NCBI GenBank assembly: GCA_964490285.1
Contig: CAZBCN010000006.1
Coordinates: 13,720-77,719, forward strand
From: an uncultured Gemmatimonas sp.
GTDB taxonomy: Bacteria > Gemmatimonadota > Gemmatimonadetes > Longimicrobiales > Gaopeijiaceae
Length of the DNA stretch: 64,000 bases
Direction: 5' to 3'
Shown: positions 10,980-46,186 of the stretch, in pieces
Position numbering within the stretch: position 1 is the first letter of the stretch
How the letters are laid out: each line of letters begins with the position of its first letter
Program-made: the position numbers and the translations under genes
Notes under the pieces: model-generated
The model's input: only the letters and a program-made list of their open reading frames with translations
What the model was told of the DNA's origin: nothing
Databases searched by the model: none

Positions 10980-11174
10980 GGATGGTACCCCCGCCGGATG
11001 GACACGCTCATCGTGGGCTCCTGGGGGGTTCTCGTAAGATGAGGCGCGCCATCCCTGCGCTCAAGCATGACGTTGGAGCGAGAGCGCGGCCGGGAGCGGC
11101 CTCGCGGGGGACCTAGCGGGCGGCCGTACGACCTAGTTTATTGCGCGAGGGACCTCACTCCACGGAGGTGTAGC

Positions 11175-11714
11175 ATGGCCAAGAAGGCCGCGAAGAAGAA
11201 GCCGGCTAAGAATAGAGCTGCCAAGCCGAAGGCGAAGGCTCGGAAGAAGGCCAAGCCGACCGCGAAGAAGCGGGTTGCCGGCGTGAAGCGACGAGTGAAG
11301 GCAGCGGTGAAGCGCACAGCCGGAAAGGTGAAGTCGGCGGCGAAGAAGGCCGGCAAGAAGCTGGCGAAGCGGAAGAAGTCCGCTCCTCGCAAGGCGGCGC
11401 CCAAGAAGACCGCCGCGGCGAAGAAGCCGGCCGCGAAGCCCGCTCCGATGGTCCGCCGGGCGACGCCCGCGCCGGCTCCGGCGTCACCGCGACCTGCGCC
11501 AGCGCCGCCTCCTCCTCGGCCAGCCATGCCGGCTCCTGCTCCTCCGCGTCCGATGCCGGCGCCCGCGCCGCGGCCGCCGATGCCCGCCCCGGCCACGCCG
11601 CGACCGATGACGCCACCGACCCCACCGCGGGTCGCGCCGACTCCGTGGCCGAGGCCTACGCCTCCGTCCACTCCGCCCAGCGGCCCTGGGCCTGGCTCGA
11701 GAGACGACACCTAG
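11175..11714 (+). CDS. histone H1-like Lys/Ala-rich protein with a Pro-rich (PAPAP/RP) C-terminal half
   Basis: GGAGG lies 6 nt upstream of ATG 11175. N-terminal half is AKK/KKA repeats (MAKKAAKKKPAKNRAAKPKAKARKKAKPTAKK...). C-terminal half is PAPAPPRPMPAPAPRPPMPAPATPRPM. Confidence 0.6.
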   Translation: MAKKAAKKKPAKNRAAKPKAKARKKAKPTAKKRVAGVKRRVKAAVKRTAGKVKSAAKKAGKKLAKRKKSAPRKAAPKKTAAAKKPAAKPAPMVRRATPAPAPASPRPAPAPPPPRPAMPAPAPPRPMPAPAPRPPMPAPATPRPMTPPTPPRVAPTPWPRPTPPSTPPSGPGPGSRDDT

Positions 11715-11741
11715 CTGGGATCTTCGTGTATAGGACTGCGA

Positions 11742-11772
11742 CCGGCCCGACGACCCGAGGTCGTCGGGCCGG
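11742..11772 (+). terminator. 13-bp perfect hairpin after the H1-like gene (no U-tract)
   Basis: CCGGCCCGACGAC - CCGAG - GTCGTCGGGCCGG, read directly. Confidence 0.35.
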
Positions 11773-11810
11773 CTCGCATCCACACGGCCGCATTCCTTAG
11801 ATTCGATTCG

Positions 11811-13103
11811 ATGCTTCGTTGGATCCCCCCAGTCGTCGTGGCCGCCCTCGTCTGGGCCGCGGCCACGCCATCGCCCGGCTTGGCGCAGGTCGCCACGCGA
11901 TCGGAGGCGATCGGAGCGGGGCCAGCCGTCACGGATGACGACGGCATCGGGCGATACGTCTTCGCCGGGGTCGCGATCGACAGCTTCGCGACAGGATCGC
12001 CTTGGAAGACGCTCGCCAACGCGGTCAACGACCTCGAGGGAGTCCGGGAGGTCCTCCAGGAGCGCTACGGCTTCGAGTCCCCGGACGAATGGGTGCTCAT
12101 CAACGCGGCTGCGACGAAGGACGCCATCGAAGAGCTGCTCGACATGCTGGACGATCCGGCGACGGGTCTGCGTCCCGACGACGCGCTCGTGTTCTTCTAC
12201 GCCGGGCACGGGACTGAACGGGTCGACAGCATCGTGACCGGTGACGTCCAGCGGAGGGGCTACCTGGTGCCCCACGACGTGACGAAGTCTCTCTCCGAGG
12301 CGCGTCGGCAGTACATGGAGATCAGCGAGCTGGTGGAGGCCCTGAGCGTGCTCGGCGCCAATCACGTACTCCTGATCCTCGACTCATGCCAGAGCGGTCT
12401 CGCGCTCACCGCCGACGACGGCCTCAAGGAGGAAGCGCGGGACTTCGAGATGTCTCAGCTCATCGAGGACATGGCTCGCAATCCCAGCCGGCTCGTGGTG
12501 ACCTCCGCGCAGTCCAACCAACTCGCTGCCGACGGGGGACCCTTCGAGGGCCACTCCCTCTTCACCGGCTACCTCGTCGACGGTTTGTTGCGCGCGGCAG
12601 AGGGCGGAATTCCCGACACGCTCCAGACCGAGCGGGGCCGCCTGGTGACGAGTGAGCTCTTCGAGTACGTGCAGGAGCGAGTCGGTCGGGCCCCGGGATC
12701 GACCCAGACGCCGACCTTCGGGGCGTTCCTCGCGCGCGGCGACGCGCCACGAGGGCAGATGGTCTTCGAGTTCGCAGTGGATCCATTCGACGACGCGTAC
12801 ACCGAGGCGATGGAGTATTACCGCGACCGGTCGTACGAAGCCTTCGTCGAAGCCGCCGAGCTCGCGCTCGCGGAGGAGGACGAGGAGAACGGGCCGCGCG
12901 CGGAATATCTGCGATTCCGCATCGCGACCATCCCGAACTCGAGGAACGTAGCCGCCCAGGTGACCGCGCTTCGGCGTCTCAAGCGCTACGCCGACGAAGG
13001 AGTGACGATCCCCCTGGATGCGCTCAATCTCGACGAACTCCTGCTGATGGCAGAAGAGCTCTGCGCCAACCCCAAGCACGCCTGCCCGGCGGCGGGCGCG
13101 TGA
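11811..13103 (+). CDS. exported caspase-family (peptidase C14) protein with a helical C-terminal region
   Basis: Signal peptide ...ATPSPGLAQ. His motif FFYAGHGTE and Cys motif LLILDSCQSGLA. Confidence 0.85.
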   Translation: MLRWIPPVVVAALVWAAATPSPGLAQVATRSEAIGAGPAVTDDDGIGRYVFAGVAIDSFATGSPWKTLANAVNDLEGVREVLQERYGFESPDEWVLINAAATKDAIEELLDMLDDPATGLRPDDALVFFYAGHGTERVDSIVTGDVQRRGYLVPHDVTKSLSEARRQYMEISELVEALSVLGANHVLLILDSCQSGLALTADDGLKEEARDFEMSQLIEDMARNPSRLVVTSAQSNQLAADGGPFEGHSLFTGYLVDGLLRAAEGGIPDTLQTERGRLVTSELFEYVQERVGRAPGSTQTPTFGAFLARGDAPRGQMVFEFAVDPFDDAYTEAMEYYRDRSYEAFVEAAELALAEEDEENGPRAEYLRFRIATIPNSRNVAAQVTALRRLKRYADEGVTIPLDALNLDELLLMAEELCANPKHACPAAGA

Positions 13104-15196
13104 TTTCACTGTCGACCACGGTGAAGCACACGGCCTGGGCGTGGGTAGGTGTGTGCGTTCTCGCGGGGCCGGCGCTCGCGCAGGATCGATCGATCTTCAC
13201 GGCTCTGGATACGGGAGACCGTGTGGTCGACGTGCTGAGCGGGCCGGCACGGGGCACGCTCTCCGCGGAGGACCTCATCGCCACCGGCGGCCGCCGCGTG
13301 CAGGTCTGGCGGCTGGAAGCCAACGTCGGCGACCAACTCCAGGTCGACCTCCGCTCAGGCGACTTCGACGCCTACGTGTACGTCGTGGGACCGGGTCTGG
13401 GCGAGGGCCTCGCGGACGATGACGGGGGCGATGGTCTGAATGCGCGTGTCTGCGTCACCCTCGACGAGCCGGGCGAGTACCGGGTGGTGGCCTCCGCACT
13501 GTCGAGTGCGACCGGCGGATTCACGCTCAGCGTGAGGCAACGCCCGGGCGTGACCAACGGAACGTGCCCGGAGGACGCCGGGGCCGCGACTTCCGCGGAG
13601 GTCGACGACATCGCTGACCTACCGCTCGATGGCCGAACGCTCGACATCGGTGCTGAGGCCGAGGGTAGGTTGTCCACCGCCGACGCCACGATCCTCGGCT
13701 CCCCCGCGCAGGCGTGGGCGCTGGAAGGCGTGGCCGGTCGGAGCGTATCCGTAGACCTGCGCTCGAGCGATTTCGACGCGTATCTCATGGTGGATGGCCC
13801 CGGACTCGAGAGCTGGCTCAGCAACGACGACGGAGCCGGTCGGTGCGATTCGCGGATTACGCTCGATTTCCCGGAGACCGGCGTGTACCGGGTGGTCGCG
13901 TCGACCCTCAACGACGGCATGGGTGAATATCGGCTCATCGTATCGGAGGAGCCGGGCCCCGTGAATGAAGAGGCCTGCATCCCGCCCTCGACCACGACGA
14001 GCGGTGGCGAGGAGGCAGTCGCGACCGTGGGTGCTCTCGCCTGGGAAGAGACCCGCGAAGGCACGCTCACCGGGTCGGAAGGTGAGTACATGGGGCGCCG
14101 CATGCAGGCCTGGACCCTCGAGGCCCAAGCAGGCACCAGGGTAGTGGTCGAGGTACGCTCCTCCGACTTCGACAGTTATACGTCTTTGACCGGTCCCGGC
14201 TTCGAGAGGAATCCGCCGTTCAACGACGACGGTGGTGGCAACCTGAATTCGCGTCTCTGCGCGGAGCTTCCGCAAACCGGAACGTACCGGGTGTTCGCAG
14301 GCCCCTATTCCGGCGGCGAGGCCGGACAGATCTACTCGGTTCGCGCCTCGGTGGCGGACGCCACCAGCCTGTGCACCGAGTTCGAGATGGCGCCCGAGGC
14401 GATCGCCGCCGTGCTTCGCCGACTGCCCACCGCTGGACGGTCGATCGCTCTCGGGGGCGACGCCGAGGGCCGGCTGGATGCTGCGGTCGACTCGCGCCAC
14501 CCCGACACGAATCACCTGATCCAAGCGTGGAGCTTCGAGGGCGTAGCCGGACGCACCGTGTACGTGGACGTCGTGTCGGACGACTTCGATACCGTTCTCT
14601 ACGCGCTCGGCGCGGGCATCGAGGGCATCCTCTTCCTCGACGACGCCGACGCCGGCTGCAACACGCGCATGTCGATCACGCCCTCCGAGTCGGGTCCCAT
14701 CCTCCTCTTCCCCGGAGCGTACGCGGAGGACGGCTCGGGCGTATTCCGTGTCCGGGTCGCGAGCGAGCCCGGCCCGCTGGAGGACAACCAATGCGACTTC
14801 GGTGTGGCCGACGCCGCGGGCGTCGACGCCGGCCGGCTCGCGGGCCTCACGTCCGGCGAGGAACGTCCCGTCCAGCCGGTCACCTTGGCCGAGGGCACGC
14901 TCGGCTCGGACGATCAGCGGCTCGGCTCCGGGGAGCCGGCCCAGCCCTGGTCCCTTTCCGTGAGCGCCGGTGAGGAGCTCGAGATCACGCTCATCTCGGA
15001 AGCGTTCGACCCCGTGCTCTACGTCGACGGGGCGTCGCTCCCCGAGGCACTCATGGACGACGACAGCGCCGGCGACCTCGACTCCAGGATCACCCTGACG
15101 GTGCCCGCCGACGGAGTGCTCAGGATCGTGGCGAGCGCGTTCGCCTCCGACGCCGCGGGCGACTACGAGATACGGATCGTCCGCCGTACCCCGTAG
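13100..15196 (+). CDS. exported protein made of five PPC-like (pre-peptidase C-terminal type) beta-sandwich repeats
   Basis: GTGA overlap with the upstream caspase stop. Signal peptide ...LAGPALAQ. Five modules share W-L-E---G--v-V-L-S-DFDaYl-v-GPG----nDDg-g--nSRi---lp-tG-YRVvas------G-Y-L-V. Confidence 0.75.
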   Translation: MISLSTTVKHTAWAWVGVCVLAGPALAQDRSIFTALDTGDRVVDVLSGPARGTLSAEDLIATGGRRVQVWRLEANVGDQLQVDLRSGDFDAYVYVVGPGLGEGLADDDGGDGLNARVCVTLDEPGEYRVVASALSSATGGFTLSVRQRPGVTNGTCPEDAGAATSAEVDDIADLPLDGRTLDIGAEAEGRLSTADATILGSPAQAWALEGVAGRSVSVDLRSSDFDAYLMVDGPGLESWLSNDDGAGRCDSRITLDFPETGVYRVVASTLNDGMGEYRLIVSEEPGPVNEEACIPPSTTTSGGEEAVATVGALAWEETREGTLTGSEGEYMGRRMQAWTLEAQAGTRVVVEVRSSDFDSYTSLTGPGFERNPPFNDDGGGNLNSRLCAELPQTGTYRVFAGPYSGGEAGQIYSVRASVADATSLCTEFEMAPEAIAAVLRRLPTAGRSIALGGDAEGRLDAAVDSRHPDTNHLIQAWSFEGVAGRTVYVDVVSDDFDTVLYALGAGIEGILFLDDADAGCNTRMSITPSESGPILLFPGAYAEDGSGVFRVRVASEPGPLEDNQCDFGVADAAGVDAGRLAGLTSGEERPVQPVTLAEGTLGSDDQRLGSGEPAQPWSLSVSAGEELEITLISEAFDPVLYVDGASLPEALMDDDSAGDLDSRITLTVPADGVLRIVASAFASDAAGDYEIRIVRRTP
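13196..15193 (+). repeat. 5 tandem protein-level repeats of about 115-145 aa each (PPC-like modules)
   Basis: Repeat cores: LRSGDFDAYVYVVGPG, LRSSDFDAYLMVDGPG, VRSSDFDSYTSLTGPG, VVSDDFDTVLYALGAG, LISEAFDPVLYVDGAS. Confidence 0.7.
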
Positions 15197-15214
15197 CCGC
15201 CCCGCTCACGTCGA

Positions 15215-17005
15215 TCAACGCTGACGGAAGAAGTCCGCCACCGTCATGTTCTGGCGATCACCGCGGATCTGAGGCTCCTGCAGCTCCCTGTTCTCGCGCG
15301 AGTAGGTCGTCACGTCGGCGAAGACCTGCCGGTGCACCTGCGCCAGGGTAGTGTTCGGAGATGCCTCGGTGAGATGCTGCCCGAGGAAGTACGCGAAGAC
15401 GCTCGAGCCCCCGCCGAGCTCGGGCCCTCCGACCCATGACACCTGCATATCGGTGGAGGCACCCCACATGACGTGGCGCTGCGGCGTCTCCATCACCCGC
15501 GCGATCGCGCCGAAATCACCGAAGCCGAGCGAGAAATCGGTCAGGTTCGCCGCCTTGAGATCACTCGTGATGAAGTTGGTCGGCATGCGAACGTGCTCCG
15601 CGATCCCCGGAGCGCTCAGGTCGACCATCTTCGCGGTCGCTCCGCGCGTGACGGATCCCGAGAAACATGCGTCGACCGCAACCATCGAACGGCCCGCGTC
15701 GAGCGTCTCGATCAGGTAGCCGAGCTCCTCATCAAGGATCACCGAAGACTCGCGGTCGGCGCCATACACATAGATGGCCTGATCGCCCTCCTCGTTCTCC
15801 GGATCGAGCGAGCCCGTCACGCCGATGTTCTCGCCGATCTGGGTCCCGTGACCCGAGTAGAAGAAGAACGCCAGCCCGTTCGGGCCCGCCTGGCCCAGGT
15901 GCTGCGCGATGCCCTGCGCGATGTTCTCGCGCGTGGCGTCGGAGTCGGTGAGGGTCACGACGTTTCCGGGCTCGAAGCCGAAGTGGCTCACGAGCATATC
16001 CTGCATGATGCTGACGTCCTCGAGGACGAACGGGCCGAGGTCGGCATCCGTTCCAGGATAGTCTGCGATGCCCACCAGGAGCGCGTAGCGCCCGTTCGGG
16101 TCGCCGCCCGTGCGGAACCCCGCAAACGGGACGCGCTGTGTCGAGGTAGCGCTCAGCGTGTACGCTCCCGTCGCGCCGTCCGCGTACGAGGTGACAAATA
16201 CCGTATACGCTCCACCGGACGGGAGCGTCACCTCGACGCGGCTGTTCGTGCCCTCACTGTCGTCGTTCTCTGCGAGTACGTCGGTGCCCGCGAGGACGCC
16301 CAGGTACGTGTCGAAGTCTTCCGACGCCAAGGTCACGGTGACCTGGTCGCCCGCTCGTCCCTGGAGCGTCCAGGTGTGGTAGTGAGTCCCGTCGGCCACC
16401 GGATCGCTGGCCACGAGCTCACCGCCGGTCGCCCTCCCCGGCACGAGCACGCGCGACTCTTCACCGCCCGTGGGCAGCACGTCGACGGAGATGCCGTAGC
16501 GCCCCGTGGCGCCGCTACCATAGCTCGTCGCCATGGCCGCGTACGTTCCGGGTCCAACCGCGAGCGACAGTCCGGAGTTCGTCCCAACGAGGTCATCGTT
16601 ATAGGCGAGGATCCCGCTCGCCTGACCGGGGGGGCCGTCAGCCAGCGCGACGTACGTGTCGAACGCGTCCGAGCTCATCGCGATCATGACCTCGCTCGGT
16701 TGCGTGACCTCGAAGGTCCAGACGTCCAGGAACGCGCCATTCTCCATCTTGGCGTCGGTGGTCTCGAGGGCCCCGGCCGTCATCTGGCCGGGAGCGATGG
16801 CGGCAATGCCCTTCTGCGCCTCGCCGTTGACGAGCGTCGTGGTCGCCTGCGCCATCCGCACGGCGCTGCTCTCGCCCCCCTTCGCGGAAAGGCCGGCGAG
16901 CGACTTGGAGCCCGGCACCTTCTCGGCTTCGCAAGCAGCCAGCGTCATACATGTCAGCAGCGCGCCGACGCTCGCTACGCGCCGGCCACGATCGGTTGTC
17001 AGCAT
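15215..17005 (-). CDS. lipoprotein: two PPC-like repeats fused to a C-terminal caspase (C14) domain
   Basis: Lipobox LTCMTLAAC. Repeats MSSDAFDTYVALADG...AYNDD and ASEDFDTYLGVLAG...ENDDSEG. Caspase motifs FFFYSGHGTQ and MVAVDACFSGS. Its SD (AGGAGA) overlaps the TAG stop of the upstream gene. Confidence 0.85.
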   Translation of the reverse strand: MLTTDRGRRVASVGALLTCMTLAACEAEKVPGSKSLAGLSAKGGESSAVRMAQATTTLVNGEAQKGIAAIAPGQMTAGALETTDAKMENGAFLDVWTFEVTQPSEVMIAMSSDAFDTYVALADGPPGQASGILAYNDDLVGTNSGLSLAVGPGTYAAMATSYGSGATGRYGISVDVLPTGGEESRVLVPGRATGGELVASDPVADGTHYHTWTLQGRAGDQVTVTLASEDFDTYLGVLAGTDVLAENDDSEGTNSRVEVTLPSGGAYTVFVTSYADGATGAYTLSATSTQRVPFAGFRTGGDPNGRYALLVGIADYPGTDADLGPFVLEDVSIMQDMLVSHFGFEPGNVVTLTDSDATRENIAQGIAQHLGQAGPNGLAFFFYSGHGTQIGENIGVTGSLDPENEEGDQAIYVYGADRESSVILDEELGYLIETLDAGRSMVAVDACFSGSVTRGATAKMVDLSAPGIAEHVRMPTNFITSDLKAANLTDFSLGFGDFGAIARVMETPQRHVMWGASTDMQVSWVGGPELGGGSSVFAYFLGQHLTEASPNTTLAQVHRQVFADVTTYSRENRELQEPQIRGDRQNMTVADFFRQR

Positions 17006-17016
17006 TCTTCGATCTC

Positions 17017-19032
17017 CTAGTTGGGTTGGATGTTGATGATCACTTCACGGCTCACAGCCAGGTCGGGCTCCGAGCCGCCGGTCGAACGGGTGCGCTCCGA
17101 CTCGAACCACGGGCGCAGATCCTGCGGAGCCTCCGTGGCGAAGACCTTCAAGACCTCTTCGCCGACGTCCCCTTCCGAGAGCCGAAAGCAGCGGTCGATC
17201 TCGCGGCCGGCGTCCAGCTGCTCCCCCGCCTGACCCTGGCGGGGCCAGAGGACCTCGACCTGCCCACCCGGACGGAGGTCGACCAAGTAGACGAACGCTC
17301 GCCGTCGGCCCCGATTCGCGACCCGGAGCCAGTAGGTGTCGCCCGGGCTCAGCCGCCACTGACCCCCGCCGAGGTTCTCGGCTCGAGACGCGGCGCCCGC
17401 CCAATCCGCGGGCGAGCAGTACGCCTGGCCACCCGGAGGCTGCACGAGCTGTGGCCGGGGGGATAGCTCGACGACGATGCCGAGCTCCGCGCTTTCGAAC
17501 GTGAGGCGCCGCAGGTATCGGTTGCGCGCGTACTCCTCCACTCGGCCGATGACCTGCTGAGCCCCGGTGGCGAGCACACGGTCGTCGGCGATCACTCGCG
17601 CCTCGGGACGTCCACCCCGATCACCGATGACGACGTCGCCGCCTTCGTCGACGAGCTGCACCATGCCGGACCCCGCGAGGCGGTTCGACAGGCCGGCCCG
17701 GTCGGTCTCCCGGAGCGAGCCGTCGAGGCGAACACGGAGCACGAGGTCCCCATAGCTGCGCTGGGTCACGAACGCCCAGGCTCCGCGCACGTCCTCGGTG
17801 ATGGACCCCGTCATCGCCTCGGCGAAGGAGCGCGTTGCCGACGCCTGCGTCACCAGGAGCGCGGCCAGCTCGGCGCGTTCGCCGGGCGTCGCCGTGCCCA
17901 CGGGATGCACCGCCAGGCGCGTTCCCGGGTTGAGGCCGACCAGCGTGCCACCGGCCAAGACGACCCCTTCGGAAGTGACGGAGTCCACCACCACATACGG
18001 CATCTGCTGCGTGAGGCGATTCGAGAACAGGGAGACGTCTGCATCCCCCTCCATCTGAGGTGTCTGGTTGCTGACCTTCCCGAGCAGGCTGCGCGCGATC
18101 GTGGCGAAGAGGGCGCGGTTCGTCGTCCCGGGGCCTGCTTCTGGAAGCGCGCGGGCGATGGCGAAGCTGAGCGACCCGACCTTCGTGCGGCCATCGAGGT
18201 CGTAGGTCTCCTTCGCCATCTGGCGTGGGCTCGCGGCACTGAAGACCACGAAGGGCGCGAGATCGACCGCTCCGCGGGTCGCGGCCGGCCGCCCAACCTC
18301 GATCCCCGTCCCGCGGTCTTCCTCGGACGCTCCGCGCGCGGCAGGCGCCGTTCCCCCCACGAAGGCGGGAGGGCCGAGCGGCGCCTCCTCTCCGCGTGCA
18401 GGCAGCTCGTCGTCCACGCCCCTCGTCCCCGTTCCGGAGTAGCAGGCGTCCAGGAACACCGTCACGTTCCCGGTCCGTCCCGCGCGCGCACGGATCTGGA
18501 CGATGTACTCCCCCAGCTCGTCGTCACGGATGTGGAGCGAGCCGTCGTAACCCTCGTAGAACTCCGCAGGCGCGCCGTACGGGACGAGCACCTCGTCCAG
18601 CCCGTCGAACTCCTCGTCCTCCGCGGGATTGTCGTTCGTGATCCGGTGCCCGTGCCCGGAGTAGTGGATCACGACCACGTCGCCTCGGTCCGTGTCGCGC
18701 ACGAGCCGCTGGAGCGCCGAGCGAATGCCGTCCGCCGTGGCCTGCGAGTCGGGGAGCACGCGGATGTCTCGCGGAAGGAATCCCTGCCGCTCCAGCGCGC
18801 CCCGCACGAGGACCACGTCGTTCGCCGAGCTGAGGTCACGATACGCGAGAACCGCGCGCCCAGTCGCCGGGTTCACCGGCGGCGGGCCGTACTCCCCGAT
18901 CGCGATGATCAGGGCCCGTTTCGTGCCCTCTTGAGCCGAGGCCGCCCCCCCACCGAGCAGCATGGTCGCGCAGGCGATGGCCGTCAGGCAGACCGCCGCC
19001 GGCCGCGGGCCGCACCGCAACGGGGTCGACAT
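17017..19032 (-). CDS. exported caspase (C14) protein with a DUF4384-like C-terminal domain
   Basis: Start chosen at MSTPLRCGPRPAAVCLTAIACATMLLGGGAASAQ (ATG 19032). Caspase motifs VVIHYSGHGH and VFLDACYSGTG. C-terminus ...SPGDTYWLRVANRGRRRAFVYLVDLRPGGQVEVLWP... resembles DUF4384. Confidence 0.85.
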   Translation of the reverse strand: MSTPLRCGPRPAAVCLTAIACATMLLGGGAASAQEGTKRALIIAIGEYGPPPVNPATGRAVLAYRDLSSANDVVLVRGALERQGFLPRDIRVLPDSQATADGIRSALQRLVRDTDRGDVVVIHYSGHGHRITNDNPAEDEEFDGLDEVLVPYGAPAEFYEGYDGSLHIRDDELGEYIVQIRARAGRTGNVTVFLDACYSGTGTRGVDDELPARGEEAPLGPPAFVGGTAPAARGASEEDRGTGIEVGRPAATRGAVDLAPFVVFSAASPRQMAKETYDLDGRTKVGSLSFAIARALPEAGPGTTNRALFATIARSLLGKVSNQTPQMEGDADVSLFSNRLTQQMPYVVVDSVTSEGVVLAGGTLVGLNPGTRLAVHPVGTATPGERAELAALLVTQASATRSFAEAMTGSITEDVRGAWAFVTQRSYGDLVLRVRLDGSLRETDRAGLSNRLAGSGMVQLVDEGGDVVIGDRGGRPEARVIADDRVLATGAQQVIGRVEEYARNRYLRRLTFESAELGIVVELSPRPQLVQPPGGQAYCSPADWAGAASRAENLGGGQWRLSPGDTYWLRVANRGRRRAFVYLVDLRPGGQVEVLWPRQGQAGEQLDAGREIDRCFRLSEGDVGEEVLKVFATEAPQDLRPWFESERTRSTGGSEPDLAVSREVIINIQPN

Positions 19033-19224
19033 TCGGGTTTTGGGGGGCTTCAGAAGGGGCGGGACGAAATGAGTAGGGTTGGTGCGTCGCGATCGCAAGG
19101 CCGGCACCCGACGACTTCGGGTCGCGGGAATCGGCCGTGTGACACCGCCCACCCTGGCACGTTCCGCAGGTTCCACCCAGATTCGTTCCATAGTGGTCGT
19201 CTGCCCCAATGGAGCATCACACCC

Positions 19225-19800
19225 ATGAAGAAAGCGATCTGCCTCGCCGTGCTGGCGGGGGCGTTCGCGATGGGCGCGCCGGTCGACGCACGCGCTCAGG
19301 GTCTGCTCGCGGTAGGCGAGATGGCACCCGATTTCGAGCTGCCGGGCGCGACCCGGTACGGTGCGCTCGCCAACCCCGTGCGCCTGAGCGACTACCGCGG
19401 CGAAACGGTCGTCCTCGCGTTCTTCTTCCGCGTCAGGACCCCTGGCTGAACAGTTCAAATGACGGCGTACCGTGATCAGTACGCGAGCCTATTCAACGAC
19501 GGACAGAACGTGGTGGTGCTGGGCATCTCGAATGATTCGCAGCAAGAGCTCGGAGCCTGGCTGAAGGACGCGGACTTCCCCTTCGTCTTCGCGAGCGACG
19601 CGGCCAATAACGGCGCGACGTACACGCGATTCGGCGGGGGGCTCCGACCCAACAACATGGTCGACAGCCGTGCCGTGATCGTGGTCGGTCCCGACGGTCG
19701 GGTCGCCGCGACGATCCCGCAGTTCAACCAAGCCGACCCGATGGCGTACGAGCAGCTTGCCGAGATCGTGGACCGAGTGACCCCGGAGCCGGCCCAGTAG
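19225..19800 (+). CDS. exported Bcp/AhpC-TSA-type peroxiredoxin with an in-frame TGA (19447-19449) at the peroxidatic Cys position: candidate selenoprotein, or else a pseudogene
   Basis: ORF ending at 19449 (...VVLAFFFRVRTPG*) and ORF 19459..19800 are in the same frame. Joined, they read RTPG-[TGA]-TVQMTAYRD, matching the Bcp motif TPGCTVQ-C--RD. Signal peptide MKKAICLAVLAGAFAMGAPVDARAQ. Confidence 0.6.
19465..19484 (+). promoter_or_regulatory. candidate bacterial SECIS hairpin
   Basis: GCGUAC-CGUGAUCA-GUACGC: 6-bp stem, 8-nt loop containing GU. It starts 15 nt after the UGA, so the loop lies about 21 nt downstream. Confidence 0.4.
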
Positions 19801-45235: not shown

Positions 45236-46135
45236 CTATCGATCTCGAGCCGGCGGCCCGAACAAGGCCTTGGCCCCATCCCCGGTGATCTGCGGGCTCT
45301 GACCCAGCTCCTCGTACTCGAGCCGCTCGGCGACGCGGCGCAGTACGTCCTCGTAGGTCGCGGACGGCGTAACCTCGCCGAGCGCCTCCGCCAGGTAGCG
45401 CGTGAACATCCCTCCGTGCTCGCCGCCGGGAGAGGCGGTGGCATCGAGCGGGCCCTCGAGCGCGGCCTGATTGGGCGCCGCCGCCGCGAGCTCGAGAATG
45501 CTCGTCGCCGCGTCGGCCATGGACTCGGGATCGTACCGCTGGCGAACCACCGCAGGCTCCCTACCGCCCTCGGAGGGGACCGCACGCTCGAGCGAGCGCG
45601 TCCGCATGTTCGCGGCCCGTGTGGCGGTGCCCGAGTGGCAGCTGTCCAAGATGACCACGACGTCCGTACGGATCGTCGACAGCCAGGCGCGAAACTCGTC
45701 GTCGCGGATGTCGTTCGCGCTCGACAGCGGCAGGACATCGACCGGAGCGAGCGTCTCGTCGAGGCCGTCCGGCTCGTCGCCGTCGAGGTCGTAGACCTGG
45801 GACCCGTGCCCCGCGAAGTAGAAGATCGCGAGGTCACCAGGGGCTGCGCGGCCGGCGAGCCAGACCGTGATCGCCTCACGGATCGCCTCCTTCGTCGCCT
45901 CGCGCCCCAACAGGGCCATCGAGTTCGCCGGGTCCAGTCCCCAACGCTCGACGAGCACGTCCCTCATGACGCGCGCGTCCCGCTCGGCGCCGAGCAGGTC
46001 GCCTCCCGGCTCGTCGTCGAACTCGATGTAGTCGTTGATGCCCACGAAGACGGCATACTTCGTCTGTGCGAGCGCCGGGGGCGCGACCGACGACGCAGCG
46101 AGCACGAGGAGGAGCGGCAGGGCGCGCGGGGACAT
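45236..46135 (-). CDS. exported caspase-family (C14) protein, single domain
   Basis: Signal peptide MSPRALPLLLVLAASSVAPPALAQ. Motifs IFYFAGHGSQ and VVILDSCHSGT. Confidence 0.85.
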   Translation of the reverse strand: MSPRALPLLLVLAASSVAPPALAQTKYAVFVGINDYIEFDDEPGGDLLGAERDARVMRDVLVERWGLDPANSMALLGREATKEAIREAITVWLAGRAAPGDLAIFYFAGHGSQVYDLDGDEPDGLDETLAPVDVLPLSSANDIRDDEFRAWLSTIRTDVVVILDSCHSGTATRAANMRTRSLERAVPSEGGREPAVVRQRYDPESMADAATSILELAAAAPNQAALEGPLDATASPGGEHGGMFTRYLAEALGEVTPSATYEDVLRRVAERLEYEELGQSPQITGDGAKALFGPPARDR

Positions 46136-46186
46136 GGAGCGTGCTACCCGCGATAGGCCTGATTGGCTCGATGCCACGTGTGTGGG

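What the first reader, a model, noticed from the sequence alone, without database searches (positions are those of the whole stretch)
13100..17005. Rosetta-stone relationship: the PPC-like array is a separate gene in one arm and fused to the caspase in the other
On the plus strand the caspase and the five-repeat protein are separate polypeptides joined only by a 4-nt GTGA overlap. On the minus strand two copies of the same repeat type (SSDAFDTYVALADG...NDD, ASEDFDTYLGVLAG...NDD) are fused N-terminally to a caspase domain in one lipoprotein. Split and fused versions of the same domain pair, facing each other, argue that the repeat module works physically with the protease, for example as a substrate or surface targeting module or as an inhibitory pro-region.
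Basis: inference. Interest (0 to 1): 0.6.

Follow-up and report, generated by a model that had tools for sequence, protein, structure and literature searches.

The report
Exported caspase quartet with PPC arrays
Three secreted caspase-like proteases and a five-repeat binding-domain protein form a gene set conserved in some Gemmatimonadota; the repeat domain is split from one protease and fused to another, a new twist on the ordinary design of a secreted protease with a substrate-binding module.

Summary
Caspase A (11811-13103) ends in a GTGA overlap with B (13100-15196), an exported protein of five ~107-aa PPC repeats. On the minus strand, lipoprotein C (15215-17005) carries two repeats of the same family ahead of an intact caspase domain. 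The B and C repeat profiles match at hhalign probability 99.9% (E 3e-32).

- A, B, C and a third caspase, D (17017-19032), form a four-gene set.
- That set stays linked in four different gene orders across Gemmatimonadota.
- A-B coupling is tight: the gap is 13 nt or less in 9 of 9 loci.
- A true fused counterpart of A+B exists. At least 24 C14-(PPC)n proteins have a caspase that is sister to A-type caspases.

The repeats were not exchanged recently. Each of B's five positions forms its own clade across species, and C's repeats form a separate clade.

All four proteins are exported. All three proteases keep the His/Cys dyad and the two acidic S1-pocket residues typical of metacaspases.

The most likely role of the repeats is Ca-dependent binding of a protein or surface target for Arg/Lys-specific proteases. 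This role is inferred, not shown. PPC domains attached to secreted proteases are a known design; the pairing with C14 and the split quartet appear undescribed. Interest is moderate.

The parts
11811..13103 (+). Gene A. Exported A-type caspase/metacaspase-like protease, 430 aa. Signal peptide ends ...GLAQ. C14 domain at aa 66-303. His133/Cys193 dyad, Asp191 (two residues before the catalytic Cys) and Asp74 (helix alpha1). C-terminal region of about 125 aa, helical and without any Pfam hit.
   Evidence: Pfam C14 58.6 bits. Residues read from the sequence. No Pfam hit on the C-terminal region. Orthologs lie directly upstream of every B ortholog.
13100..13103 (+). GTGA overlap of the A stop codon and the B start codon (translational coupling).
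   Evidence: Sequence. ATGA or GTGA is conserved in 7 of 9 loci; the A-stop to B-start distance is 13 nt or less in 9 of 9.
13100..15196 (+). Gene B. Exported stand-alone array of five PPC/CBD-like beta-sandwich repeats, 698 aa. Four conserved Cys pairs (118/156, 249/293, 387/425, 520/565), each linking a repeat core to the following linker.
   Evidence: Pfam PPC 58.2 bits. Custom repeat HMM. Conserved Cys columns across 86 orthologs (positions). AF2 pLDDT 91.5, pTM 0.67. Best Foldseek hit is the ColG tandem collagen-binding domain 5iku.
13226..13543 (+). B repeat 1 (aa 43-148). DxDxY...Y motif intact.
13637..13951 (+). B repeat 2 (aa 180-284). DxDxY...Y motif intact.
14033..14356 (+). B repeat 3 (aa 312-419). 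DxDxY...Y motif intact.
14441..14767 (+). B repeat 4 (aa 448-556). The two aromatic positions of the motif are replaced (Val, Ile).
14867..15187 (+). B repeat 5 (aa 590-696). Motif decayed (Ala, Val, Leu). No Cys pair.
15215..17005 (-). Gene C. Lipoprotein (lipobox Cys25) with two N-terminal PPC repeats fused to a C-type caspase domain. His386/Cys447 dyad, Asp445 and Asp330.
   Evidence: Pfam PPC and C14. H386, C447, D445 and D330 are invariant and C25 near-invariant in 92 orthologs. AF2 pLDDT 83.5, pTM 0.82. Foldseek hits to metacaspases AtMC9/AtMC4, GSU0716 and MALT1, and to ColG tandem CBD for the N-terminal pair.
16478..16801 (-). C repeat 1 (aa 69-176).
16139..16450 (-). C repeat 2 (aa 186-289).
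15263..16090 (-). C caspase domain (aa 306-581).
17017..19032 (-). Gene D. Exported D-type caspase, 671 aa counted from MSTPLRCG. His127/Cys197 dyad, Asp195 and Asp72. C-terminal region of about 340 aa with a weak DUF4384 match. Ends 11 nt upstream of C.
   Evidence: Pfam C14 59.9 bits. DUF4384 E 0.005, below cut-off. Start position and residues. D-then-C order is kept in the window, L013-L017, L019, L020 and L024; it is reversed to C-then-D only in L067.

Best explanation
Genes A, B, C and D form a conserved extracytoplasmic protease module of some Gemmatimonadota. It consists of three catalytically intact, metacaspase-like (probably Arg/Lys-specific) C14 proteases and a non-catalytic array of five PPC/collagen-binding-domain-like beta-sandwich repeats.

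All four products are exported by Sec. C is then lipid-anchored. B is stapled by four disulfides.

The PPC repeats most likely act as Ca-dependent modules that bind a protein or surface target and raise the local concentration of the proteases on a macromolecular substrate. In C the module is attached covalently (PPC2-caspase). For A it is supplied in trans by B, which is made in fixed proportion through translational coupling.

**Shown here:**
- homology of the repeats;
- intact active sites;
- export signals;
- conserved linkage of the four genes in several gene orders;
- existence of natural A-type caspase-PPC fusions.

**Inferred:**
- physical A-B contact;
- the binding (rather than inhibitory) role of the repeats;
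- P1 specificity;
- the physiological substrate, with extracellular or cell-surface protein degradation or processing as the leading guess.
For: **The repeats are one family.**
- hhalign gives 99.9%, E 3e-32.
- Pfam PPC scores are above the cut-off in both B and C.
- The ColG tandem collagen-binding domain is the top or a specific Foldseek hit for both AF2 models.

**Binding residues are kept.** The four PPC residues needed for protein binding in protease E495 are D26, D28, Y30 and Y/W65 (PMC3327674). They correspond by motif and exact spacing to DxDxY-35-Y. This motif is kept in B1-B3, C1 and C2 across orthologs.

**Linkage is conserved.**
- A>B <C<D in the window and in L002, L004, L007, L013-L017.
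- D>C>A>B in L019.
- A>B>D>C in L024.
- caspase>8-repeat array>PPC1-C14>caspase in L067.
- The A/B start-stop overlap or near-abutment holds in 9 of 9 loci.
- Full-length B and full-length C are present in the same 3 of 251 phylum genomes.

**Fusions occur in every order.**
- C14-(PPC)n: at least 24 proteins, whose caspase is sister to A-type with support 0.98.
- (PPC)5-6-C14, (PPC)1-2-C14 and (PPC)2-C14-M48.
- The same repeat type is also fused to trypsin-like proteases, so it serves as a general accessory of proteases.

**The proteins are exported.**
- Signal peptides and a lipobox are present.
- The lipobox Cys is near-invariant.
- B has four conserved Cys pairs.

**The active sites are intact.**
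- The His/Cys dyad is invariant.
- Asp two residues before the catalytic Cys and Asp on helix alpha1 are conserved, as in the TbMCA2 and MALT1 S1 pockets (PMC4357240).
- The closest solved folds are metacaspases.
Against: - No direct test of A-B contact was possible.
- About 45 other loci in Gemmatimonadota carry arrays of 1-5 repeats of this type with no caspase within 8 kb. One is in this genome itself. The repeat is therefore not dedicated to caspases.
- Repeats B4 and B5 have lost the aromatic binding residues in many orthologs, so not all repeats can work the same way.
- The high pTM of the C model (0.82) suggests that the PPC pair packs firmly on the caspase domain. That would fit an autoinhibitory pro-region equally well.
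- The correspondence to E495 residues rests on motif and spacing, not on an alignment with the E495 sequence.
Confidence: 0.6

Rival explanations
1. The PPC modules act as inhibitory or chaperone-like pro-regions. In C the N-terminal PPC pair keeps the caspase latent until it is removed. B does the same in trans for A, as a co-secreted inhibitor or folding partner made in fixed proportion.
For: - The PPC domain is named for being removed from pre-peptidases during maturation (E495 has forms with 0, 1 and 2 PPC domains; PMC3327674).
- The closest solved sequence relatives of the repeat profile are PliG periplasmic lysozyme inhibitors (4dy3, 4dy5; E 5e-4 to 7e-4). This shows that a related beta-sandwich can act as a periplasmic enzyme inhibitor.
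- The C model has pTM 0.82, which implies a fixed PPC-caspase arrangement.
- Translational coupling of A and B resembles protease-inhibitor operons.
Against: - Five repeats, each conserved as its own position-specific lineage, are more than a 1:1 inhibitor needs.
- Arrays of the same type occur widely without any protease nearby.
- The experimentally defined substrate-binding residues of PPC are conserved.
- No conserved processing site between PPC2 and the caspase domain was identified.
Confidence: 0.2
2. B is not a partner of A. It is either a substrate (for example, an array processed by the caspases into single domains) or an independent surface or matrix protein that is only co-regulated with the proteases.
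For: - PPC arrays exist as stand-alone exported proteins in many contexts. Several lie next to an amino-acid permease gene.
- The short low-confidence segments of the B model (residues 161-163, 298-300, 569-571) lie in the inter-repeat linkers and could be protease-accessible.
Against: - Natural fusions of an A-type caspase to the array argue for action within one complex.
- Most linker sequence is confidently structured and disulfide-stapled.
- The conserved Arg residues before the repeats align with the first beta-strand of the repeat in both B and C, and are not exposed linker sites.
Confidence: 0.15
3. The adjacency is chance, or the ORFs are annotation artefacts.
For: At 68% G+C, long spurious ORFs are common in this window.
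Against: - All four ORFs have Pfam domains above the cut-off.
- B and C each have more than 100 homologs of matching length, and A and D have orthologs at every conserved locus.
- Linkage is kept through four different gene orders.
Confidence: 0.02

Closest known systems
Secreted proteases carrying PPC (PF04151) or collagen-binding domains. Examples: Pseudoalteromonas thermolysin-like E495, the Grimontia hollisae M9A collagenase, and ColG/ColH of Hathewaya histolytica.
   Same: - Exported protease plus one or more PPC beta-sandwich modules.
- Tandem PPC pair whose fold matches ColG s3a-s3b.
- DxDxY...Y binding motif conserved.
- In those enzymes the PPC domain binds protein or collagen substrate and raises activity on macromolecular substrates (PMC3327674, PMC6168687).
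   Different: - The catalytic domain here is a clan CD C14 caspase homolog, not a metallo- or serine protease.
- In C the PPC modules are N-terminal rather than C-terminal.
- For A the module is a separate five-repeat polypeptide made from an overlapping gene.
- Each of B's first four repeats carries an extra conserved Cys pair reaching into the linker; repeat 5 has none.
Metacaspases and orthocaspases (MEROPS C14B). Examples: TbMCA2, Yca1, AtMC4/AtMC9, and bacterial GSU0716 (3bij).
   Same: - His/Cys dyad.
- Asp two residues before the catalytic Cys and Asp on helix alpha1, which form an acidic S1 pocket.
- These are the best sequence and fold matches in the PDB.
   Different: - Characterised members are cytoplasmic and act in stress or cell-death contexts.
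- The proteins here carry signal peptides or a lipobox.
- They occur as a linked trio together with PPC arrays.
- The 2012 census of prokaryotic caspase homologs does not mention PPC anywhere in its main text and found only one homolog, with a substituted dyad, in Gemmatimonadetes (PMC3501461).
PliG, the periplasmic inhibitor of g-type lysozyme (4dy3, 4dy5, 4g9s).
   Same: It is the closest solved relative by sequence to the repeat profile (E 5e-4 to 7e-4, aligned over about 80 residues, including the D-T-Y-L..GPG segment). It is also periplasmic.
   Different: PliG is a single domain that inhibits lysozyme. Nothing here shows inhibition, and the similarity is marginal.
The caspase_w_EACC1 family (NF047832) and caspase-like effectors of defence systems (PADLOC 'caspase').
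   Same: The caspase domain shows partial profile matches.
   Different: - Scores are far below the NCBIfam cut-off (63, 41 and 28 bits against 140).
- Only the N-terminal third or so of the PADLOC profile matches (positions up to 129-130 of 453).
- The proteins are exported, and no NTPase or other conflict-system partner lies nearby.

Membership tests
[quoted passage not shown] | Profile match above Pfam's gathering score | tested here: met
   B scores 58.2 bits and C 30.0 bits against a cut-off of 25.9. All seven repeats match a custom HMM at 116-136 bits.
[quoted passage not shown] | Beta-sandwich fold like the collagen-binding domains of ColG/ColH | tested here: met
   The AF2 models are all-beta in the repeats, with pLDDT 83-92. 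Foldseek finds 5iku (ColG s3a-s3b) as the top hit for B (E 1.2e-9) and as rank 15 for C (E 2.8e-11). TM-scores are low because the models are multi-domain.
[quoted passage not shown] | Conserved polar and aromatic residues needed for protein binding (D26, D28, Y30, Y/W65 of E495) | tested here: met
   All four residues are present in four of the seven window repeats (B1, B2, B3, C2). C1 keeps three, with Ala at the D26 position. B4 and B5 have lost the aromatic residues. The match is by motif and spacing only; no alignment with the E495 sequence was made.
[quoted passage not shown] | Located at the C-terminus of a secreted peptidase and removed on maturation | tested here: not met
   In C the repeats are N-terminal to the protease. 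B has no protease domain at all. Whether the repeats are removed on maturation cannot be tested with these tools.
Peptidase C14 (caspase/metacaspase), subfamily C14B-like | Profile match above the cut-off and the caspase/haemoglobinase fold | tested here: met
   PF00656 scores 57.6-59.9 bits against a cut-off of 21.4 for A, C and D. For C, Foldseek gives E 1e-14 to AtMC9/AtMC4, and also hits GSU0716 and MALT1.
Peptidase C14 (caspase/metacaspase), subfamily C14B-like | Catalytic His/Cys dyad | tested here: met
   A: H133/C193. C: H386/C447, invariant in 92 orthologs. D: H127/C197.
Peptidase C14 (caspase/metacaspase), subfamily C14B-like | Acidic S1 pocket (Asp on helix alpha1 and Asp two residues before the catalytic Cys) giving Arg/Lys specificity | tested here: inconclusive
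   Both Asp residues are present in A, C and D and invariant in C orthologs (D330, D445). Their equivalence to TbMCA2 Asp95/Asp211 and MALT1 Asp365/Asp462 rests on motif position. Cleavage specificity itself cannot be tested here.
caspase_w_EACC1 (NF047832) | Score above NCBIfam's cut-off of 140 bits | tested here: not met
   A, C and D score 63.2, 40.6 and 28 bits.
Anti-phage defence caspase-like effectors (PADLOC) | Full-length match to a defence-system model, with system partners nearby | tested here: not met
   Only positions 4-130 of the 453-position model match. All the proteins are exported, and the neighbours are redox and housekeeping genes.

The most novel reading that the evidence does not exclude
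The quartet is a dedicated cell-envelope multi-caspase machine. B would be a non-catalytic scaffold whose five position-specific repeats each dock a different partner: A, C, D and the substrate. The three paralogous proteases would then act as a cascade or as a combined degradosome on the cell surface. This would be an extracytoplasmic bacterial counterpart of a caspase activation platform.
Probability: 0.12. Interest if true: 0.7.

Novelty: new variant of a known kind. Interest (0 to 1): 0.4.

Why it matters
Bacterial caspase homologs are discussed almost entirely as cytoplasmic cell-death or defence effectors. Here three intact ones are exported, kept together with a binding-domain array, and conserved as a unit through several rearrangements.

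If the binding model holds, PPC-assisted proteolysis extends to clan CD cysteine proteases. It would also provide a natural split-versus-fused pair for studying how accessory domains target a protease.

It would also point to a protein-degrading or envelope-processing function in Gemmatimonadota, a widespread phylum that has been little studied experimentally. The practical value is modest until a substrate is known.

Tried and rejected
- **Recent exchange or concerted evolution between the repeats of B and C: rejected.** B1-B5 each form position-specific clades across species. C1 and C2 form a separate clade with support 0.88.
- **C as the fused ortholog of A+B: rejected.** The A and C caspase domains share only 22% identity and fall in different clades. 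The true fused counterpart of A is the P0232 family.
- **Defence-system or EACC1 membership: rejected**.
- **The repeat being specific to caspases: rejected.** Most arrays of this type in the phylum have no caspase within 8 kb.
- **The gene upstream of a distant B-like array (L010) being a degenerate A caspase: rejected.** It shows no similarity to A and has no Pfam hit.
- **Conserved Arg residues before the repeats as cleavage sites: rejected.** They belong to the first strand of the repeat.
- **Promoter and terminator scan of 11000-19500: uninformative**.
- **Literature: nothing found.** No paper in the held library mentions PF04151 together with PF00656, and the main census of prokaryotic caspase homologs does not mention PPC in its main text.
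Full report
**Observation**

The region holds four real genes.

- **A (11811-13103, +, 430 aa).** It has a signal peptide and a Peptidase_C14 domain (58.6 bits, cut-off 21.4).
- **A/B junction.** A's TGA stop overlaps the GTG start of B as GTGA at 13100-13103.
- **B (13100-15196, +, 698 aa).** It has a signal peptide and matches Pfam PPC (58.2 bits, cut-off 25.9).
- **B's repeats.** An HMM built from the window's own repeats finds five units of about 107 aa at residues 43-148, 180-284, 312-419, 448-556 and 590-696.
- **C's repeats.** The same HMM finds two units in C, at residues 69-176 and 186-289.
- **C (15215-17005, -, 596 aa).** It begins with a lipobox (LAAC, Cys25) and ends in a C14 domain.
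- **D (17017-19032, -).** This third exported caspase ends 11 nt before C's start.

The repeats of B and C are clearly homologous. blastp gives E 7e-19. A profile-profile comparison of ortholog-enriched alignments gives probability 99.9%, E 3e-32, over 105 columns.

**Source organism and family sizes**

Homologs are annotated as Gemmatimonadota, in the orders Longimicrobiales and Gemmatimonadales. The genome is 3.55 Mb and encodes six C14 proteins, four of them in this window.

C belongs to a large family. More than 100 proteins of about 600 aa were listed. With the custom HMM, 99 of the 120 listed homologs of C carry two repeats and the other 21 carry one or 4-7. NCBI names them only 'caspase family protein'.

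B belongs to a family of about 700-aa stand-alone proteins, most with five repeats, named 'hypothetical' or 'PPC domain-containing'.

**Conserved linkage**

The four genes travel together.

| Gene order | Loci |
|---|---|
| A>B <C<D (the window's layout) | L002, L004/L005 (C 47% identical, different flanking genes), L007, L013-L017 |
| D>C>A>B, one strand | L019 |
| A>B>D>C | L024 |
| caspase > eight-repeat array > PPC1-C14 > caspase | L067, a more distant family |

- The convergent, 'facing' layout is therefore incidental. The A>B pair is conserved in every order. The D>C pair is conserved in all but the distant L067, where the order is C then D. The two pairs always stay adjacent.
- In GTDB species genomes, 8 of 8 testable B orthologs have an A-type caspase directly upstream. 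C and D lie within 8 kb in 8 of 9.
- The A stop and B start overlap as ATGA or GTGA in 7 of 9 loci. They are never more than 13 nt apart.
- In an even sample of 251 genomes of the phylum, full-length B occurs in three genomes. Full-length C occurs in exactly the same three.
- The module is patchy in the phylum but strictly coordinated.

**The Rosetta-stone argument, corrected**

C is not the fused form of A+B. The A and C caspase domains share only 22% identity, and A, C and D form three old clades.

A genuine fused counterpart does exist. P0232 (1154 aa) has an N-terminal C14 domain followed by six repeats, and at least 24 such proteins of 987-1656 aa were found. Their caspase domain is sister to A-type caspases with support 0.98.

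Other fusions of the same repeat type:
- (PPC)5-6-C14, whose caspase groups with D-type (support 0.76);
- (PPC)1-2-C14;
- (PPC)2-C14-M48;
- trypsin-(PPC)4;
- (PPC)4-TonB_C.

Each of the three caspase lineages in the cluster therefore has relatives fused to PPC arrays, and domain order tracks caspase type.

**Repeat history**

In a tree of 191 repeats, B1, B2, B3, B4 and B5 each form a position-specific clade across species. C1 and C2 together form a separate clade with support 0.88.

The five-fold array is old and has not been homogenised. There has been no recent exchange between B and C. The fused families (P0232, P0092/P0104) expanded their own repeats independently.

**What the proteins look like**

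- **C model.** pLDDT 83.5, pTM 0.82.
  - Its caspase part matches plant metacaspases AtMC9 and AtMC4 (E about 1e-14), the bacterial GSU0716 and MALT1.
  - Its N-terminal pair matches the ColG tandem collagen-binding domain 5iku.
- **B model.** pLDDT 91.5, pTM 0.67, with mostly well-ordered linkers. Its best hit is also 5iku.
- **Closest solved relatives by sequence.** For the repeat profile these are the PliG periplasmic lysozyme inhibitors (E 5e-4).
- **Disulfides in B.** B has eight mature Cys residues forming four conserved pairs. Each pair joins a repeat core to the following linker. This fits an oxidising, extracytoplasmic location.
- **Active sites.** A, C and D all keep the His/Cys dyad. 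They also keep an Asp two residues before the catalytic Cys and an Asp on helix alpha1.
- **S1 pocket.** These positions form the acidic S1 pocket in TbMCA2 and MALT1, whereas caspases proper have Gln/Arg there (PMC4357240). Arg/Lys specificity is therefore predicted but not shown.

**Mechanism**

In characterised secreted proteases, PPC domains bind protein or collagen substrates and raise activity on macromolecules but not on small peptides (PMC3327674 and PMC6168687).

The four residues required for binding in E495 are D26, D28, Y30 and Y/W65. They correspond by motif and exact spacing to the DxDxY-35-Y signature. That signature is conserved in B1-B3, C1 and C2. It has decayed in B4 and B5.

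My best reading, at confidence 0.6: the PPC modules target the proteases to a macromolecular substrate or to the cell surface. The attachment is covalent in C. For A it is made through the co-translated partner B.

Rival readings:
- **Inhibitory or chaperone pro-region (0.2).** This is supported by the PliG similarity, by the maturation behaviour of PPC domains, and by the compact C model.
- **B as substrate or as an unrelated co-regulated surface protein (0.15).**
- **Chance (about 0.02).** This is excluded by the conservation.

Limits:
- Physical contact could not be tested.
- The repeat is not caspase-specific. About 45 loci in the phylum carry arrays of 1-5 repeats with no caspase nearby. 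One is in this genome, and several follow an amino-acid permease gene.

**Comparison with known systems**

This is the familiar design of a secreted protease with a PPC or collagen-binding module, with three unusual features:
- the catalytic domain is a clan CD C14 caspase homolog;
- the module is N-terminal in one protein and a separate five-repeat polypeptide for another;
- three paralogous proteases are kept with it as a quartet.

It is not a member of the EACC1-associated caspase family or of a defence system.

In the held literature, no paper mentions PF04151 together with PF00656. The main census of prokaryotic caspase homologs does not mention PPC in its main text and found only one homolog, with a substituted dyad, in Gemmatimonadetes.

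**Verdict**

The finding is a new variant of a known kind, and interest is moderate (0.4).

Noticed in passing
window 19225-19800 (+): An exported AhpC/TSA-type peroxiredoxin appears split into two ORFs (the tail of 17905-19449, then 19459-19800). I first read this as a frameshift. Gene calls in L001 and L002 split the ortholog in the same way, into 113 aa plus 73-74 aa, so the interruption is conserved.
   Followed up: no
window 45236-46177 (-): A fourth exported caspase homolog of 313 aa, with a signal peptide, YFAGHG and a classic metacaspase DSCHSG motif, and no PPC repeat. Two further C14 genes lie on contig C2 of the same genome.
   Followed up: partly
L009 3510-4847 (G000 contig C59): The same genome encodes a stand-alone 445-aa PPC-repeat protein far from any caspase. 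It lies between an Aminotran_5 gene and a PhoU-domain gene.
   Followed up: partly
L021 5741-9704; L025 5141-9677; L028 5703-9218: In several Gemmatimonadota MAGs, a 3-4-repeat PPC array gene directly follows a gene for an amino-acid permease fused to PTS_EIIA_2 and TrkA_C domains. A beta-propeller gene lies upstream in L021 and L028. This may hint at a role in peptide or amino-acid acquisition.
   Followed up: partly
L010 5613-9028: A distant B-like array (675 aa, 36% identical) in a 7.1-Mb contig overlaps by 4 nt with an upstream 463-aa gene. That gene has no Pfam hit and no similarity to caspase A. The array can therefore be coupled to a different, unknown partner.
   Followed up: partly
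L067 3538-11985 (G168 contig C10): A variant of the quartet on one strand: caspase, an eight-repeat array of roughly 1100 aa, a one-repeat PPC-C14 protein, then another caspase.
   Followed up: partly
window 11067-11714 (+): A Lys/Ala-rich then Pro-rich 215-aa ORF lies just upstream of A. A 188-aa gene without any Pfam hit occupies the same position next to A in L002 and L003, so it may be a conserved neighbour.
   Followed up: no
proteins P0094 and P0102 (homologs of C): These homologs extend the PPC2-C14 architecture with a C-terminal Peptidase_M48 segment, and a Sel1 repeat in P0102. Each is a single exported protein of about 980 aa carrying two proteases.
   Followed up: no
window 17017-18051 (-), C-terminal part of D: D's C-terminal region of about 340 aa has only a weak, sub-threshold DUF4384 match (E 0.005). 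A's last ~125 aa have no match and end in a CxxxxxxC motif (C418, C425). Both regions are conserved in orthologs (the Actd and Dctd scores).
   Followed up: partly
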